Source: an uncultured delta proteobacterium
GTDB lineage: Bacteria > Myxococcota_A > Polyangia > Palsa-1104
DNA: 64,000 nt
Direction: 5' to 3'
NCBI GenBank assembly: GCA_963785725.1
Contig: CAWAWS010000020.1
Location: forward strand, 192,001-256,000
Positions 32,901 to 38,900 of this stretch are shown one piece after another; position 1 is the stretch's first letter; each line of letters starts with the position of its first letter. Position numbers: made by a program.

Positions 32901-35900
32901 TGACGCGCTATGATTTGGGCATGGTCGAGCTGCGCCTCGTCGGTCTGCTGCTCGGCGGCTTCGTCGTCGTGCCGTGGCTGTTGGCGATGGCGCCGTGGGA
33001 AGTGACGTTCGGCCTCGGCATTGCGCTCGTCGTCGTCGGCATGGCCGTCGGTGTGCCGGCGGGCGCGCTCTATCACCTGCGGCTGTGGCAGACGCTCAAG
33101 CCGGCGCGACGCTGGTGGGTGAATCCGACGGCGCTGCACGCGCAGCTCGAAGGCGCGAGCCGCGCGCGCGTGCTCTTCTGGTTTCGCTTCGGCGCCGTCG
33201 GCTTCGTGATCGCGATCGCGGGCTGCGCGCTGGTGGCGGTGGGCGTCATCCGCGCGGGCTGAGCTTCGTATGCCGCTACTTGTGCATCGAGACGAGGAAG
33301 TCGGCCGGCGGCAGCGTCACCGTCGCGCCGATCGCCGGCAGCGTGAACGGCGCGTAGCGCTGCACCGACCAGCGGGCGAAATAGAGCGACGGATCGGTCA
33401 GCGGCACGTCGAAGCGAAAGCGGGCGGAGGCGGGACGGCCGTCGGCGGTCGTCGACAGGACGTCGACGTGCATGCCGGTGAGGTCGATGTGCGCGTGCGG
33501 CGGCAGCGGACGGCTGCGCAGCATGTACTCGCTGATCCGCGGCATGAAGCCGCCGACGGGCGTCACGACCAGCGTGTGCTCGTCTTCGCGGGTGACGGTG
33601 ACGCTGTCGTGCGTCGACGTGAGCCAGCGAAACGTCGGGAGCGGCACGCCGAGCGCGGCGCGGCGCGAGGCGAGATAGCCGGCGAAGAAGTCGGCCGGCG
33701 GATTGACGAGCACGACCGTGCGGCCGGCGATGTCGGGCGTCGACGGCAGCGACTCGTCGGCGCGCGACAGCGGGATGTTCACCGCCTCCATCGAGCGCGA
33801 GCGCAAGACCAGCTGCGGCGGGGCCAGGATGACGTGTAGGAGCAGCAGCACGACGAAGCCGGACCAGCCCCACAGTCCACGCGGCGGGGTCAACAGGAAC
33901 TGCGCCACCACCGCCATCGCGCCGATGCCGACGAACCAGAGCAGGCGATCGGCGGGGAACGTGGAGCTGATGGGCACGACGGCGAAGAGCGCGCCGGTGG
34001 CGAAGAAGCGCGCCGTGCGATCGCGACGCACGACCGGAATGAGCTGTGCGACGACGAAGACGACGGACGTGAGCGCGACGACGAAGGCGATCTTCGCCGC
34101 CCGCGCGCCGATGTACGGCCACATGGCGGTCAGATCGGACCAGGGCAAGGAGAGCTGTCCGGCCAGCAAGTAGAGCGCGCGCGACGGCAGCGCGGTCACG
34201 AAGGCGCGCGGATCGTGCGCGGGGTCGACGTAGACGCCGGAGTTGGCCGTGCCGTAGCCGAGGTGGACGTAGATGGCGCGCCAGACGATGATGACGGCGA
34301 GGTAGGGCCACAGCCGCGCCAAGCGCGCGACGAGGCGGCCGCGATCGAGCCAGAGCGCGTGCGCGACCAGGTAGCCGACGACGGCCAGCGCCGACTCGCC
34401 GGCGCCGAGCGCGACGCCGAGGAGGGCCGGCGCCAGCCACGCGCCGGCGCGCCAGCCGTCGCGTCGCCAGCGGTCGTGCACCACCAGCACCGGCAGCGCC
34501 AACGACATCGCCACCATCGCGTTGCGGTTGGCGATCCAGCCGACGGGCTGGCCGTGCGCGTCGTCGAGCGCGTAGAGCAGCGTCGCCAGTCCGGCCACGG
34601 CCGGGTCGGCGTAGAAGCGGCGATAGACCCAAGCCACCGCCGCCAGCGCCAGCGCAAACCACACGAGGTTGTGCAGGTGCATGAGGAACGGCGAGTTGGG
34701 CCAGGCGTGCCAGTCGATGAAATGCGTCAGCGACGAGATGGGGCGGAAGAAGGCGAGCTTGACGTCGGGATCGGCCCACCACGGGTACATGCCCGCGTTC
34801 ATGGCCGCGCGGTTGCCGCCGGCGCTATGCCCGGCGAACGAGAAGAGGTCGAGCGAGCTCGCGGGAAGGCCGGGCAGACGCGACTGCCAGCCGCGGCCGA
34901 CGACCACCTGGATCCAGTCGTCGGCCACGAGGCCAATCGTCAGCGACGGCGCCACCAAGGCCACCGCCAGCGCGATGACACAAAGAGGCGACCATCGCCA
35001 CGAGAGCGCGCGTCTAATAATGCCGTTCGAGGACGTACCAGCCGAAGGCACGCAACATCACTTTCGAGATCGAGTCGGCCAACAGCGGCTCGGCGGCGTT
35101 CCACGCGCTCTCGACGAGCTCGGTGGCGCGATCGGCGCACGCTTGAATCGCGCCGCAGGTCTCCAGCCGCTCGACGACCGAGGAGACGATGACCGGATCG
35201 GTCGGCTTCGACGCCAACGTCGCGAACAGCTCTTGGCGCTGGGCGCGATCGAGCAAGCCCATCGCCGTCGCGACGGGGAGCGTGATGGTGCCGTTGGTGA
35301 CGTCTTCGCCACGAGACTTCAGGTTACCCTTGAAGCCGCGCAAGTTCAGCACGTCATCGACGATCTGGAACGCCAAGCCCAGCGACTCGAAGAAGCGGCC
35401 GACCGCTTCGATCTGCGCTTCGGAGCCGCCGCCGCACAACGCGCCCATGCGCGCCAAGCAGCCGGCCGGAACGCCCGCCTTCAGACGATGCGTCGCCAGC
35501 ACGCGCGACTCGAGCAGCGAGGCGTCGCCGCTCTCGACGATCGACGGCAGCATGCCGTGCAAGCTGTCGATGTCGAGCGCTTGACCGGCGTGACCGGCGC
35601 GCATGACCTCGAAGAACAGCTCGTAGCAGCGCACGCGCGCCGCCGGCGAAATGTCGAGCGTGCGCAAGAGGCGCTCGGTCACGAAGTAGGCCGCCGTGCC
35701 CGCGTTGATGGCGAGCGGCTCACCGTACGTGATGTGCGCCGCCGGACCGCCGCGCCGCACCGTCGAGCGATCCTGCACGTCGTCGACGATGAGCGAGCCC
35801 ACGTGCATCAGCTCCGCCATCGCCAGCCACTGCAGGTACTTGCGCGAATCGCCGCCGACGACGTCGCACGCCGCCAAAGCCGCGTACGAACGCCACGACT

Positions 35901-38900
35901 TGCCGCCGCGATCGCTGATGGCGCGAATGGGCTCGAGGAGCGCGCGCGACAGCTGCTGCAAGTCCACGCCGTCGACGTAGTGGCCGCGCCCTTCGGACGC
36001 GATCAGGTTCTCGGCCTGCTCGCGCGTCAGCTCGAGCGGAATGGCCTTGGCCACCTCGGCGCGGACTTCCTTGCCGACCGCCGAGAAGAATTCGTCGAGG
36101 TCGTGCACCGACTCGAAGCCCGAGCGCTCGACGTAACCGACGCCGTGCACCGGATGGCCGTTGCGGCTGCCGACGATCTCGGTGCGGCCTTCCCAAAACG
36201 CCGGCTTCGAGATCGTCGTCAGGAACTCTTGATCGGCGAAGGCGGCGTTGATGCTGAGCTCGAGCTTCTCCGCCGGCACCGTCAGCTGCCAGCGCGTCGG
36301 ATAGTCGTTGAACATGCGCTTGGAGCGCCAGCTCTCGAGCGGCTTGAGCGTCATGTCCTTGTGCGAACGGAACTGCCCGTCGGAGTCGCTGGCGACGGCC
36401 CACTGATGCAGCACTTCGCCGTCGGCGACGCGCACGAGCGAGTACGCCGAGATGTCCGTGCCGTCGTCGAGCTGCACGGCGGCCCAGTTCCAGGCGATGT
36501 CGACGCGCTTCTCCTTCTCGAGGTCGGCGTCGGCCGTCGGCTGCTTCTGCTGCAGATCGCTGAAGAAGCCGCCGAACTCGTGATCGTACCAGCCTTGACC
36601 GGCGACGATCGGCTGCGCGCGACCGTCGAGCGTCACCGCGCCCGTGACCGAGCAGCGCGGGATGAAGTAGTAGAACATCTCTTCGCCGTTGACGCCGCGG
36701 ACGACGCCGTCGTCGCCGTGACGCGCCGGCGTCTTGCCGGGAACGAACGTCAGCTCGACGGCGACTTGCTCGTTGGCGACCTGCAGCCGATAGCTGCCGT
36801 CGTCGTTCTTGGCGAAGCGCGCGCCGCCGAAGTCGAGCTCGAGCCGCCGCTCGCCGATGTAGACGGGCGCGTCGAACATGCGATCGGGCGCCGGCACGTG
36901 ACCGCGCTCGAGGATCTCGGCGATGGCGCGATTGAGCCGCGGATCGCGCGAGCCGCGACCCTGCTTGATGCGATCGAGGCCCATCTTCGGCGCCGACGGA
37001 TCGACGCGCGAATCGGAGACGTAGGTCTTGTGGTCGAGATCCGACAGCGCCCACGTCACTGAATGCGCGTATTCCGGCTGCTTCGTCTCCGCATTCTTTC
37101 CTTTGACGATGCGGAAGAACGCCGCGAACAGAGACAGACGGCGACCGTCCGCGCTCTGAAAATGCGTGTTCATGTACCACCATTCGGTGGTCGACGAGCG
37201 ATGCGGAAGGTCGTGCACGCCCAGATCAATCGGACCCGGCTGCGGCCAATCAGCGGGGAAACGGCTCATGTGCAGTAAGTCGCCTCAAGCGCACGATCGG
37301 GACACGCGGCTGCGGAATTTTCCCGTCAGAAACACGAATTCGTAACGCTTGTGCTGCTCACTACAATTAGGTACCAAAATCGTCACAAATGCGCACGGGC
37401 GTGCTCGCGCTATGATGCGAGCGGATGCGCGCGGTCAAGCCGCTGTTGGCGCTGGCAGGCATGGCGCTGCTCGGGTTCATGCTGTCGAAGCTGTCGCGTG
37501 TCGAGCTGGCCGCGGATCTGGCGCGCGTCGGACCCTGGGCGCTGCTGACGCCGCTGCTCGCAGGCGGCTGGCTCTACGGCAACGCGATGGCGCTCTACGT
37601 ATTTCTACCGCCCGCTGTCTCGAAGTGGGGACTGTGGCGCAATCGCTTCGTGTCCGAGGGCTACAACAATTTGCTGCCGCTGCTCGGGCTCGGCGGCGAA
37701 GGCTTCAAAGTGCGCCATCTTCAGCGCACGATTCCGCTCGACGAGGCGGTGACGGCGACGCTCAAGGAGCGGCTCGTCGACAGCGTGCTCGGCTTGTGGC
37801 AGCCGGCGGCGTGCGTGGCGCTGGGCGCGATCGTGCTGCCGCTGCCGCGCGCCGGACACGACGCGGCCGTCGCCTCGGCGGTGGGTTCGTTCGCGCTCGG
37901 CTGCGTCGCGCTGGCGGCGATCTTCACGCCCTGGCCCTATCGCCTCGCCGCGCGCGCCACGCGACTCCTCGGCGGCAAAGTGGCCACGAGCGACGCGCCG
38001 GCGCCGCGCCCCAAGCTCGGCGTGCGCGCGACGATCGCATCCGTCGGCTGGATGCTCGTCGGCCGCGTCCTCGGCGTCTGCGAGATCGGCCTCATCATGT
38101 GGCGGCTCGGTCACGCGCCGTCGATCGTCGAATGGATCTTCTTGTACGGCGCGTTCGGCGTCGTGGGCACGATCGCCTGGCCGGTGCCGGGCAATCTCGG
38201 CGTCAACGAAGCGGCGTCGATGCTGCTGTTTCAGTGGCTGGGATTGCCGCAAGCGGACGGCATGGCGCTGGCGCTGGTGCGGCGCGCGCGCCTCTTGTTC
38301 GTCAGCTCGTGTGGTGTGGCGCTGTTTGCGGCGGAGCGGCGGCGCTGACGGCTTCGTCGACGGCGTCGACGCCGAGCGGCTCCTCGCGTGACGAACGATC
38401 GCGAAACACGAAGTAGCGGTGCATCGGGAAGTTCCACAGCATGCCGACGACGACGCTCAACAGCACGCGCGCCAAGATGTAGTTGAGGCCGAGCGCCACG
38501 AACAGCTTCTCGCCGCGCGAGTTGAAGATGAGGCTCAGCGTCGAGACGAAGGCGTAGCGCAGCGCTTGGCCGCGGATGTCGCCGTGTGCCGACTGAAAGA
38601 CCCAGCGCCGGCCGAGCGTGAAGCTGATGACGGCGCCGAACAGCGAGCCGATGGCCGTCGCCATCGCCGGCGTCAGGCCGAGGCCGCTCTTGCACACGAT
38701 CATGACGGCGAAGTCGACGGCGGTGGCCGCCGCGGCCGAGATCTGATGCTGGCTGAACACGAACAGCGTGCGCCGCTTGTGCTTCGTTGGCACCTGTCGA
38801 GTCTGAAGCATCACGGCGCCGCCGACAACCGCAGCCGCGGCCACGCGCGAAGCGACGTGCGAGAGATCACGACCCGCCGCTACTTTTGGACGTTCGCGAG

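What a model noticed while it worked through the whole genome (the two positions that open the first line are those of the whole stretch)
33276..37269. AttH/CrtC-lipocalin domain fused to a trans-prenyl diphosphate synthase
g05184 (751 aa) fuses an AttH/CrtC double-lipocalin domain (hydratase/cyclase fold) to an intact trans-prenyltransferase. The fusion is a large, widespread family, and longer members add a glycosyltransferase and a sulfotransferase, suggesting a bifunctional terpenoid synthase whose product is an alcohol that is then decorated.
Evidence so far: 1321 of 8000 scored proteins match at E<=1e-150; all 120 listed carry PF07143+PF17186+PF00348. Dozens of clusters at 50% identity cover the whole fusion; 10 of 101 phylum genomes. 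N-terminal half matches AttH 2ICH (E 6e-17, call 62). Both DDxxD/N motifs and AttH-side W31, Q347, E348 are conserved in 60 aligned sequences. P0154, P0162, P0199 add a sulfotransferase, P0199, P0165, P0172 a GT1-type domain; the membrane gene g05183 is adjacent in 3 of 9 other loci. No paper found.
(Added by a program. Inside this text positions count along the whole contig: contig position 192,001 is position 1 of the stretch shown here. "Call 12" and the like, gene names such as g00115 and contig names such as C1 are that model's own, and its searches are not shown. The text may have been shortened before it was handed on; [...] marks where a part breaks off. The agent that wrote the report below was given it as the finding of a first reader that could run no searches.)

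Follow-up and report, generated by a model that had tools for sequence, protein, structure and literature searches.

The report
Terpene chain-builder fused to hydratase barrel
One gene joins an enzyme that builds a 20-carbon isoprenoid chain to a barrel domain of the kind that adds water to such chains, and it sits beside a membrane sugar-transferase, so it probably makes an undescribed sugar-decorated terpenoid lipid; the same fusion occurs in many bacteria, some archaea and some eukaryotes.

Summary
The fusion is real: one 751-aa ORF (35014-37269, minus) with an AttH/CrtC double barrel (Z 36.9 to 2ICH, 32.2 to kievitone hydratase) joined to an intact trans-prenyltransferase. The chain-length region best matches human/yeast type III GGPP synthase and keeps its cap residues (Y528, H560), so C20 is likely. 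The overlapping gene g05183 has a GT-C glycosyltransferase fold and is adjacent in 33 of 78 other loci. A four-domain form (sulfotransferase-like, sterol-GT-like, AttH, GGPPS) lies between exporter genes in Tolypothrix PCC 7601. Members also occur in Thermoplasmata, Trypanosoma rangeli, amoebae and Clonostachys. Best reading (0.5): an accessory GGPP synthase/hydratase making a hydroxylated C20 lipid that is glycosylated. No activity is shown; cyclase, carrier and in-trans roles remain open; the sulfotransferase-like domain may be inactive. Ten literature searches found no study. Databases annotate the domain pair automatically, and this scan noted the fusion before in at least seven other genomes.

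The parts
35014..37269 (-). g05184: 751-aa AttH/CrtC + trans-prenyl diphosphate synthase fusion; the N-terminus shows no hydrophobic signal stretch (by eye), so probably cytoplasmic
   Evidence: pLDDT 94, pTM 0.92
36109..37257 (-). AttH/CrtC double beta-barrel domain (residues 5-387)
   Evidence: Pfam PF07143+PF17186; Z 36.9, rmsd 3.0, 311 aligned to 2ICH; Z 32.2, rmsd 3.0, 298 aligned to kievitone hydratase 7A0Q
36583..36585 (-). D229 in GWYDHEFG, proposed catalytic acid (counterpart of RgCrtC D268, mapped by motif pattern only)
   Evidence: D 83, E 16, N 2 of 101; CrtC data
36484..36492 (-). W260-N-W262, proposed cation-stabilising pair (counterpart of RgCrtC W283/W285)
   Evidence: W 92/101 and 90/101
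37177..37182 (-). W30-W31 of the first strand (one is the probable counterpart of RgCrtC W110)
   Evidence: W31 97/101, W30 84/101
35017..36099 (-). trans-prenyl diphosphate synthase domain (residues 391-751), type III GGPPS-like
35770..35784 (-). first aspartate-rich motif DDVQD (496-500), no insertion before RR
35344..35358 (-). second aspartate-rich motif DDVLN (638-642); N in 72, D in 26 of 101
   Evidence: human/yeast GGPPS have DDYXN
35590..35688 (-). chain-length cap residues Y528-F529 and H560 (yeast Y107, H139)
   Evidence: aligned to human GGPPS; YF+H in 89 of 101; cap described in PMC10762340
33276..35051 (-). g05183: 591-aa GT-C-fold membrane glycosyltransferase of no named family, conserved D44-D45 after the first membrane helix; overlaps the fusion by 38 nt
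   Evidence: model pLDDT 95, pTM 0.93; top 20 VIA rows are GT-C glycosyltransferases or GPI-transamidase subunit U, Z 9.5-17.8, next row 5.6; D44/D45 >=90% of 126; no Pfam/NCBIfam hit

Best explanation
g05184 is an accessory, probably cytoplasmic, two-step terpenoid enzyme. (1) The C-terminal domain condenses IPP onto an allylic diphosphate and stops at C20 (GGPP), because the type III cap residues are kept (inferred from sequence). (2) The N-terminal AttH barrel protonates an isoprene double bond of that chain, or of its dephosphorylated form, with D229, stabilises the tertiary cation with W30/31, W260 and W262, and quenches it with water to give a tertiary alcohol, as CrtC, kievitone hydratase and Hgs do (inferred from fold and motif). 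(3) The new hydroxyl is glycosylated: here by the overlapping GT-C enzyme g05183 using a polyprenyl-phosphate sugar donor on the outer face of the membrane, and in the four-domain forms by a fused sterol-glucosyltransferase-like GT1 (inferred from linkage). The product would be an undescribed glycosylated hydroxy-diterpenoid membrane or surface lipid. Shown: fusion, folds, motif conservation, linkage, distribution. Not shown: any activity, the product, the fate of the diphosphate end.
For: Intact IDS core in 98 of 101. The chain-length region ranks human GGPPS, yeast GGPPS and fungal chimeric-synthase PT domains in its top 19 rows; the yeast cap is L67/Y107/H139 and YF+H is kept in 89 of 101. 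The closest folds with known activity act on isoprenoid double bonds: kievitone hydratase Z 32.2; CrtC needs D268, W110, W283, W285 and hydrates C12-C20 terpenes, geranylgeraniol at 4%; Hgs hydrates isoprenoid lipid chains. W31+D229+W260+W262 are all present in 78 of 101, in members down to about 30% identity. The genome holds 3 other IDS genes, and 5 of 5 other carrier genomes hold 2-4 others, so it is not the housekeeping enzyme. GT-C homologue adjacent in 33 of 78 loci in three arrangements; strong GT-C hit in 30 of 40 fusion genomes against 48 of 260 others (kin are not independent). A GT1 of another subfamily lies next to the fusion in L023/L030. The GT1 of the Tolypothrix four-domain protein best matches sterol 3-beta-glucosyltransferase, E 6e-28, and that gene lies between exporter genes. 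Mevalonate or menaquinone genes flank the fusion in 7 of 78 loci.
Against: No assay exists. The D229=D268 mapping rests on motif pattern; I had no CrtC sequence to align and no model coordinates to measure. The uncharacterised standalone 2ICH carries the same W-x-D and W-x-W motifs, so they do not prove hydration. 23 of 101 members lack the full barrel set (3 through alignment gaps), while 22 of those 23 keep the IDS aspartates, and IDS-only relatives exist, so the barrel is dispensable in some lineages. 43 of 78 loci have no GT-C nearby (14 of them have under 2 kb on one side), including all Flavobacterium and Thermoplasmata loci. The GT-C family is common without the fusion; in 18 such regions its scanned neighbours show no consistent isoprenoid genes (90 of 105 neighbours scanned). 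No conserved phosphatase or flippase was found beside the fusion. CrtC hydrates geranylgeraniol poorly, and I saw no report of a diphosphate substrate.
Confidence: 0.5

Rival explanations
1. The barrel is a protonation-initiated (class II-like) terpene cyclase: D229 protonates the terminal double bond of GGPP and the cation cyclises before water or proton loss ends the cascade, giving a sterol-like cyclic diterpenoid alcohol that is then glycosylated.
For: CrtC catalysis is modelled on squalene-hopene cyclase. The fold also hosts ring-forming enzymes: CghA Z 24.8, Fsa2 Z 23.8. The architecture mirrors fungal cyclase-PT chimeras, whose PT domains rank high for the chain-length region. The fused GT1 is closest to a sterol glucosyltransferase.
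Against: The two closest folds are 2ICH and a hydratase; the ring-forming members are Diels-Alderases at 11-13% identity. [quoted passage not shown]
Confidence: 0.17
2. It is a plain GGPP synthase whose barrel binds or hands on the lipid product without chemistry; the GT-C link reflects shared envelope metabolism, for example supply of a prenyl-phosphate carrier.
For: Barrel motifs decay in 23 of 101 while the IDS stays intact in nearly all. NE1406 was proposed as a lipid-binding protein tied to ABC transporters. GT-C enzymes use polyprenyl-phosphate sugar donors (structure titles). The T. rangeli member is annotated as a polyprenyl synthase.
Against: An acidic residue is kept at 229 in 99 of 101 and the tryptophans in about 90%, across three domains of life, which is more than a carrier obviously needs. 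Other IDS genes already cover housekeeping. A fused GT1 implies a hydroxyl acceptor.
Confidence: 0.15
3. The barrel is a hydratase but acts in trans on a later product made from the GGPP (a prenylquinone side chain, a carotenoid or a prenylated lipid), so the fusion co-locates two non-consecutive steps.
For: CrtC, kievitone hydratase and Hgs all act on finished, non-diphosphate substrates. The fusion follows a complete men operon in L018/L022 and MenE in L053. The genome has squalene/phytoene synthase and UbiA-family genes.
Against: The L018 men operon has its own IDS at its head. No downstream prenyltransferase is conserved beside the fusion. The four-domain protein carries none.
Confidence: 0.13
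4. The barrel removes the (di)phosphate as a lyase, as 25-phosphosteroid lyase does, releasing an acyclic diterpene olefin or allylic alcohol.
For: 25-phosphosteroid lyase 9FZN shares the fold, Z 21.4, rmsd 4.0, 276 aligned; it eliminates phosphate to give an alkene. This would explain the missing phosphatase.
Against: 10% identity; well below the hydratase match; an olefin offers no acceptor for a glycosyltransferase.
Confidence: 0.05

Closest known systems
Carotenoid 1,2-hydratase CrtC (Rubrivivax gelatinosus; PF07143), kievitone hydratase (7A0Q) and hydroxy-GDGT synthase Hgs
   Same: Double-barrel AttH fold; an acid plus tryptophan set in matching motif positions; isoprenoid context.
   Different: All are standalone and act on finished molecules; here the barrel is fused to the enzyme that makes the chain. 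16% identity to kievitone hydratase. No carotenoid gene cluster among the neighbours scanned.
Fungal chimeric prenyltransferase-terpene cyclases (fusicoccadiene synthase, copalyl diphosphate synthase PvCPS, variediene synthase)
   Same: An N-terminal processing domain fused to a C-terminal type III GGPPS-like domain.
   Different: Their front domain is an alpha-helical class I or II cyclase (recalled); here it is an all-beta AttH barrel packed closely against the PT in the model (pTM 0.92), and the family is mainly prokaryotic.
Type III GGPP synthase (human GGPS1, yeast YPL069C)
   Same: DDxxD/DDxxN motifs, small residues at -4/-5, YF and HxGQ cap.
   Different: Single-domain housekeeping enzymes; this one is accessory and twice as long. 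Whole-domain searches rank plant and archaeal GGPPS higher, so the assignment rests on the chain-length region.
AttH/NE1406 (2ICH)
   Same: Best structural match (Z 36.9); W-x-D, W-x-W and DQE motifs shared.
   Different: Standalone, function unknown, linked to ABC transporters.
GT-C glycosyltransferases (AglB/PglB/STT3, ArnT, Pmt, ALG12, Aft)
   Same: g05183 has the fold and a conserved acidic pair after the first membrane helix.
   Different: 7-15% identity to all; no Pfam or NCBIfam family; donor and acceptor unknown.

Membership tests
trans-isoprenyl diphosphate synthase (PF00348) | Pfam score above cut-off and alpha-helical IDS fold | tested here: met
   155.9 bits against 27; Z 35.3, rmsd 2.6, 330 aligned to 3QQV
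trans-isoprenyl diphosphate synthase (PF00348) | Two aspartate-rich motifs, RR and K of the KT motif | tested here: met
   intact in query and 98 of 101; the query has KA rather than KT at 597-598
type III GGPP synthase | Cap residues equal to yeast Y107 and H139; DDxxN second motif | tested here: met
type III GGPP synthase | C20 product | not testable with these tools
   needs an assay; no NCBIfam GGPPS model reaches its cut-off
AttH/CrtC fold family (PF07143+PF17186) | Both Pfam domains and the double-barrel fold | tested here: met
carotenoid 1,2-hydratase CrtC | Catalytic D268 with W110, W283, W285 | tested here: inconclusive
   D229, W30/31, W260, W262 fit by pattern; no direct alignment to CrtC was possible
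carotenoid 1,2-hydratase CrtC | H239-x-W241 pair | tested here: inconclusive
   the stretch about 28 residues before D229 reads FYYFIP with no His; register uncertain without alignment
carotenoid 1,2-hydratase CrtC | Standalone enzyme in a carotenoid gene cluster | tested here: not met
   fused to an IDS; no crt genes among the neighbours scanned in the window (17 proteins) or in related loci (89 proteins)
fungal chimeric PT-terpene cyclases | N-terminal alpha-helical class I/II cyclase domain | tested here: not met
   N-terminal domain is all-beta
GT-C glycosyltransferases (g05183) | GT-C membrane fold | tested here: met
   Z 17.8, rmsd 5.8, 368 aligned to AglB 3WAJ; gap from 9.5 to 5.6 below row 20; 11 Foldseek rows shown at E<=1e-3 are all GT-C enzymes or OST complexes
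GT-C glycosyltransferases (g05183) | Conserved acidic residue(s) in the first external loop (feature recalled) | tested here: met
   D44/D45 >=90% of 126; D45 invariant in 10 more divergent members
GT-C glycosyltransferases (g05183) | Transfer of sugar from a polyprenyl-phosphate donor | not testable with these tools
   needs an assay

The most novel reading that the evidence does not exclude
AttH-GGPPS proteins are a third architecture of chimeric terpene synthase, in which a beta-barrel acid catalyst cyclises or hydrates GGPP handed over in cis. The family spans bacteria, archaea, amoebae, fungi and trypanosomatids, and in a four-domain form one polypeptide builds, modifies, glycosylates and perhaps sulfates an exported diterpenoid glycolipid that has never been described. 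In the boldest version the barrel is a new fold of terpene cyclase making a sterol-like lipid.
Probability: 0.2. Interest if true: 0.85.

Novelty: new variant of a known kind. Interest (0 to 1): 0.6.

Why it matters
If right, about one in eight sampled genomes of this phylum (40 of 300), and scattered Bacteroidota, Actinomycetota, cyanobacteria, archaea and eukaryotes, make a terpenoid lipid nobody has identified, with an enzyme design absent from the terpene-synthase literature I could search. It is directly testable: cultured carriers exist (Flavobacterium, Corallococcus terminator, Tolypothrix PCC 7601, Streptomyces canus), and one point mutant separates the main hypotheses. It would also give a first substrate lead for a large unnamed GT-C family in Myxococcota, and would mean that the trypanosomatid gene annotated 'polyprenyl synthase' carries a second, overlooked catalytic domain.

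Tried and rejected
Assembly artefact or chance ORF: rejected (full-length homologues from many sources). Housekeeping quinone-chain synthase: rejected as the main role, because other IDS genes are present and the men operon in L018 has its own. Carotenoid CrtC proper: no crt neighbours. The GtrA, HpnL-like and Gfo/Idh genes upstream in the window are not conserved at other loci, so I left them out of the system. Sequence search of the g05183 profile against the PDB found 0 matches; only the fold search placed it. The sulfotransferase-like domain had no PDB sequence match. A 'longer' homologue search gave 1 protein among 4915 candidates, weak evidence on how common long forms are. A metagenome scan with long form P0324 returned 25 loci, all matching only the IDS part. 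No RNA holder was listed, so co-transcription is untested. A maximum-likelihood tree did not finish; the FastTree tree (110 of 112 sequences; 2 dropped for covering under 550 query residues; midpoint root) has a weak backbone and supports no claim on donor or direction of transfer. The Pfam scan of the whole g05183 alignment was not obtained. Literature searches found no paper on the fusion; passages read in PMC8637591, PMC4654808, PMC13673894, PMC6832408, PMC7568655 and PMC7839719 did not mention it. The library lacks most subscription journals and theses, and I recall, with no source found, that a large trypanosomatid 'polyprenyl synthase' has been looked at before; that needs checking.

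
Full report
Observation. The window holds an uninterrupted 751-aa ORF at 35014-37269 on the minus strand. It carries CrtC (28-233), Lipocalin_9 (259-384) and polyprenyl_synt (443-700) domains, all above Pfam cut-offs. A homologue search scored 8000 candidates and found 1390 at E<=1e-3; all 120 listed carry the same three domains. An AlphaFold model from a 101-sequence alignment has pLDDT 94 and pTM 0.92, which implies a well-defined arrangement of the two halves. The N-half matches 2ICH (Z 36.9, rmsd 3.0, 311 aligned) and kievitone hydratase (Z 32.2, rmsd 3.0, 298 aligned), then CghA (24.8), Fsa2 (23.8) and 25-phosphosteroid lyase (21.4); the C-half matches trans-IDS structures at Z up to 35.

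Distribution. A GTDB scan found 146 matching stretches and returned the best 78 loci, mostly Myxococcota, plus Thermoplasmata (L005, L007, L013), Flavobacterium (L008-L012), Filimonas and Corallococcus terminator. In an even sample of the window's phylum, 40 of 300 other genomes have a fusion-type AttH domain at E<1e-50. Plasmid records add Tolypothrix PCC 7601/7712 and Streptomyces canus. The tree's backbone is weak, so I draw no conclusion on origin.

The prenyltransferase half. The catalytic core is intact in 98 of 101 aligned sequences. Searching the PDB with the chain-length region alone (121 aa) ranks human GGPPS, yeast GGPPS and the PT domains of fungal chimeric terpene synthases in the top 19 rows, and aligns Y528-F529 and H560-x-G-Q with the human residues. 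A review (PMC10762340, passages) names yeast L67, Y107 and H139 as the cap that stops elongation at C20 and gives DDYXN as the second motif; YF+H is present in 89 of 101 and N642 in 72 of 101. The match of Y528 to yeast Y107 uses yeast numbering that I partly recall. C20 is therefore the likely product, with C25 not excluded, since sesterterpene-synthase PT domains are in the same list. Whole-domain searches rank plant and archaeal GGPPS first, so the type III call rests on this region. The genome has three other IDS genes and five other carrier genomes have two to four others: the fusion is accessory.

The barrel half. In R. gelatinosus CrtC, D268 is the proposed acid and W110, W283 and W285 stabilise the cation in a cavity between the two barrels (PMC12402844, passages; PMC4717167, passages, which also lists H239, W241, Y266). 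The fusion has E-W30-W31-Y on the first strand, G-W-Y-D229-H-E-F-G, and W260-N-W262. Position 229 is D in 83, E in 16 and N in 2 of 101; the full set W31/D229/W260/W262 is present in 78 of 101. This mapping is by pattern only: the paper's supplement, which may hold the CrtC alignment, could not be read, and no His matches H239. An AttH-like protein was recently shown to hydrate archaeal lipid chains (bioRxiv 10.1101/2025.10.20.683597, abstract and passages). Against the reading: 2ICH, of unknown function, has the same motifs (PMC2954199, passages); 23 of 101 members lack the full set (3 through gaps) while 22 of them keep the IDS aspartates; and IDS-only relatives exist on Streptomyces plasmids.

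The neighbour g05183. It overlaps the fusion's last 38 nt and has no Pfam or NCBIfam hit. It has 362 homologues among 8000 scored. Its model (pLDDT 95) matches GT-C glycosyltransferases: the top 20 rows of a wide search are AglB, ALG12, STT3, ArnT, Pmt, PglB, Aft, Emb, DPY19 and GPI-transamidase subunit U at Z 9.5-17.8, and the next row scores 5.6. D44-D45 is conserved. A homologue is directly adjacent to the fusion in 33 of 78 loci (28 downstream, 4 divergent, 1 upstream), within 5 kb in 2, and not found in 43, of which 14 have under 2 kb on one side. A strong hit (E<1e-40) occurs in 30 of 40 fusion genomes and 48 of 260 others; kin are not independent. In 18 regions where the family lies away from the fusion, 90 of 105 neighbours were scanned and showed no consistent isoprenoid genes. 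The link is real in this lineage but neither exclusive nor universal.

Long forms. Sulfotransfer_3 and GT1 domains precede the fusion in several 1000-1500-aa proteins. A named example is Tolypothrix PCC 7601 plasmid gene HG267_RS38970 (1509 aa; sulfotransferase-like, GT1, AttH, IDS), between a membrane-fusion protein gene and devC/ATPase genes. Its GT1 best matches sterol 3-beta-glucosyltransferase (E 6e-28). These forms make one clade (support 1.0), so they count once. GT1 motifs are intact in 5 of 7 aligned long forms; the sulfotransferase-like loop lacks the usual basic residue in 5 of 5 (reference motif recalled), so sulfation is doubtful. A GT1 of a different subfamily (23% identity over 170 aa) follows the fusion in L023 and L030. 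Three different glycosyltransferase types have thus been recruited beside or into the fusion, which is the best argument for a hydroxylated product.

Mechanism. Most likely (0.5) the enzyme makes GGPP, protonates a double bond with D229, adds water, and the tertiary alcohol is glycosylated. Rivals: protonation-initiated cyclase (0.17), plain GGPP synthase with a lipid-binding barrel (0.15), hydratase acting in trans on a later product (0.13), phosphate lyase like 25-PSL (0.05; PMC11061730, passages). Unexplained: what happens to the diphosphate end, and how the product reaches the outer face where GT-C enzymes work; no phosphatase or flippase is conserved at the loci.

Novelty. Ten searches of open-access papers and preprints found no study of the fusion; subscription papers and theses are not covered. 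Databases label the pair automatically. Earlier notes of this scan describe the same fusion in seven other genomes with the same best guess; I had reached my reading before seeing them, and they are not independent evidence. It is not a CrtC and not a fungal-type chimeric cyclase, but works like a combination of the two: a new variant of a known kind, interest 0.6.

Noticed in passing
L027:7703-8308 (-) and 28 other loci: An unnamed ~180-200-aa gene family (no Pfam or NCBIfam hit) lies near the fusion in 29 of 78 loci, 24 times divergently just upstream. Not beside the fusion in the window; only weak matches (E 5e-6 or worse) elsewhere in this genome.
   Followed up: partly
window 40188-41805 (+): An AidB-like acyl-CoA dehydrogenase gene is split over three reading frames (ORFs 40188-40724, 40349-41113, 40813-41805): two frameshifts, either a pseudogene or sequencing errors.
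   Followed up: no
window 24383-27134 (-): Two tandem, similar genes that read like family 19 chitinases with glycine-rich linkers and repeated carbohydrate-binding modules (recognised by eye; not scanned).
   Followed up: no
window 37425-39932: HpnL/LPG-synthase-like membrane gene, GtrA-type gene and Gfo/Idh/MocA oxidoreductase just upstream of the fusion; not conserved at other loci.
   Followed up: partly
window 32055-32822 (-); L008:8528-9637: A fatty-acid desaturase gene lies two genes downstream of g05183; a desaturase also precedes the fusion in 4 of 5 Flavobacterium loci. Whether they are related was not tested.
   Followed up: no
L018, L022, L053; L001, L002; L004, L025: The fusion follows menaquinone genes (complete operon in L018/L022), or lies next to HMG-CoA reductase or HMG-CoA synthase genes.
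   Followed up: partly
P0246, P0296, P0364: PX-domain fusions of the family; P0296 and P0364 have lost barrel and chain-cap residues and score weakly for the IDS domain: possible pseudoenzymes.
   Followed up: no
P0274, P0401: Four-domain forms with 18-19% Asp+Glu and under 2% Lys, a composition typical of halophiles (inference).
   Followed up: no
L111 (G165:C1:260000-279500): Two g05183-family genes in a cluster of 600-800-aa unannotated proteins with a UbiA-family and a geranylgeranyl-reductase-like gene: a possible surface glycosylation locus.
   Followed up: no
L037:10107-12252: The fusion homologue is split into two ORFs by a frameshift.
   Followed up: no
G000:C9:9609-10631; G000:C18:56512-58173: The genome also has a squalene-hopene-cyclase-family gene and several squalene/phytoene synthase genes, unlinked to the fusion.
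   Followed up: no
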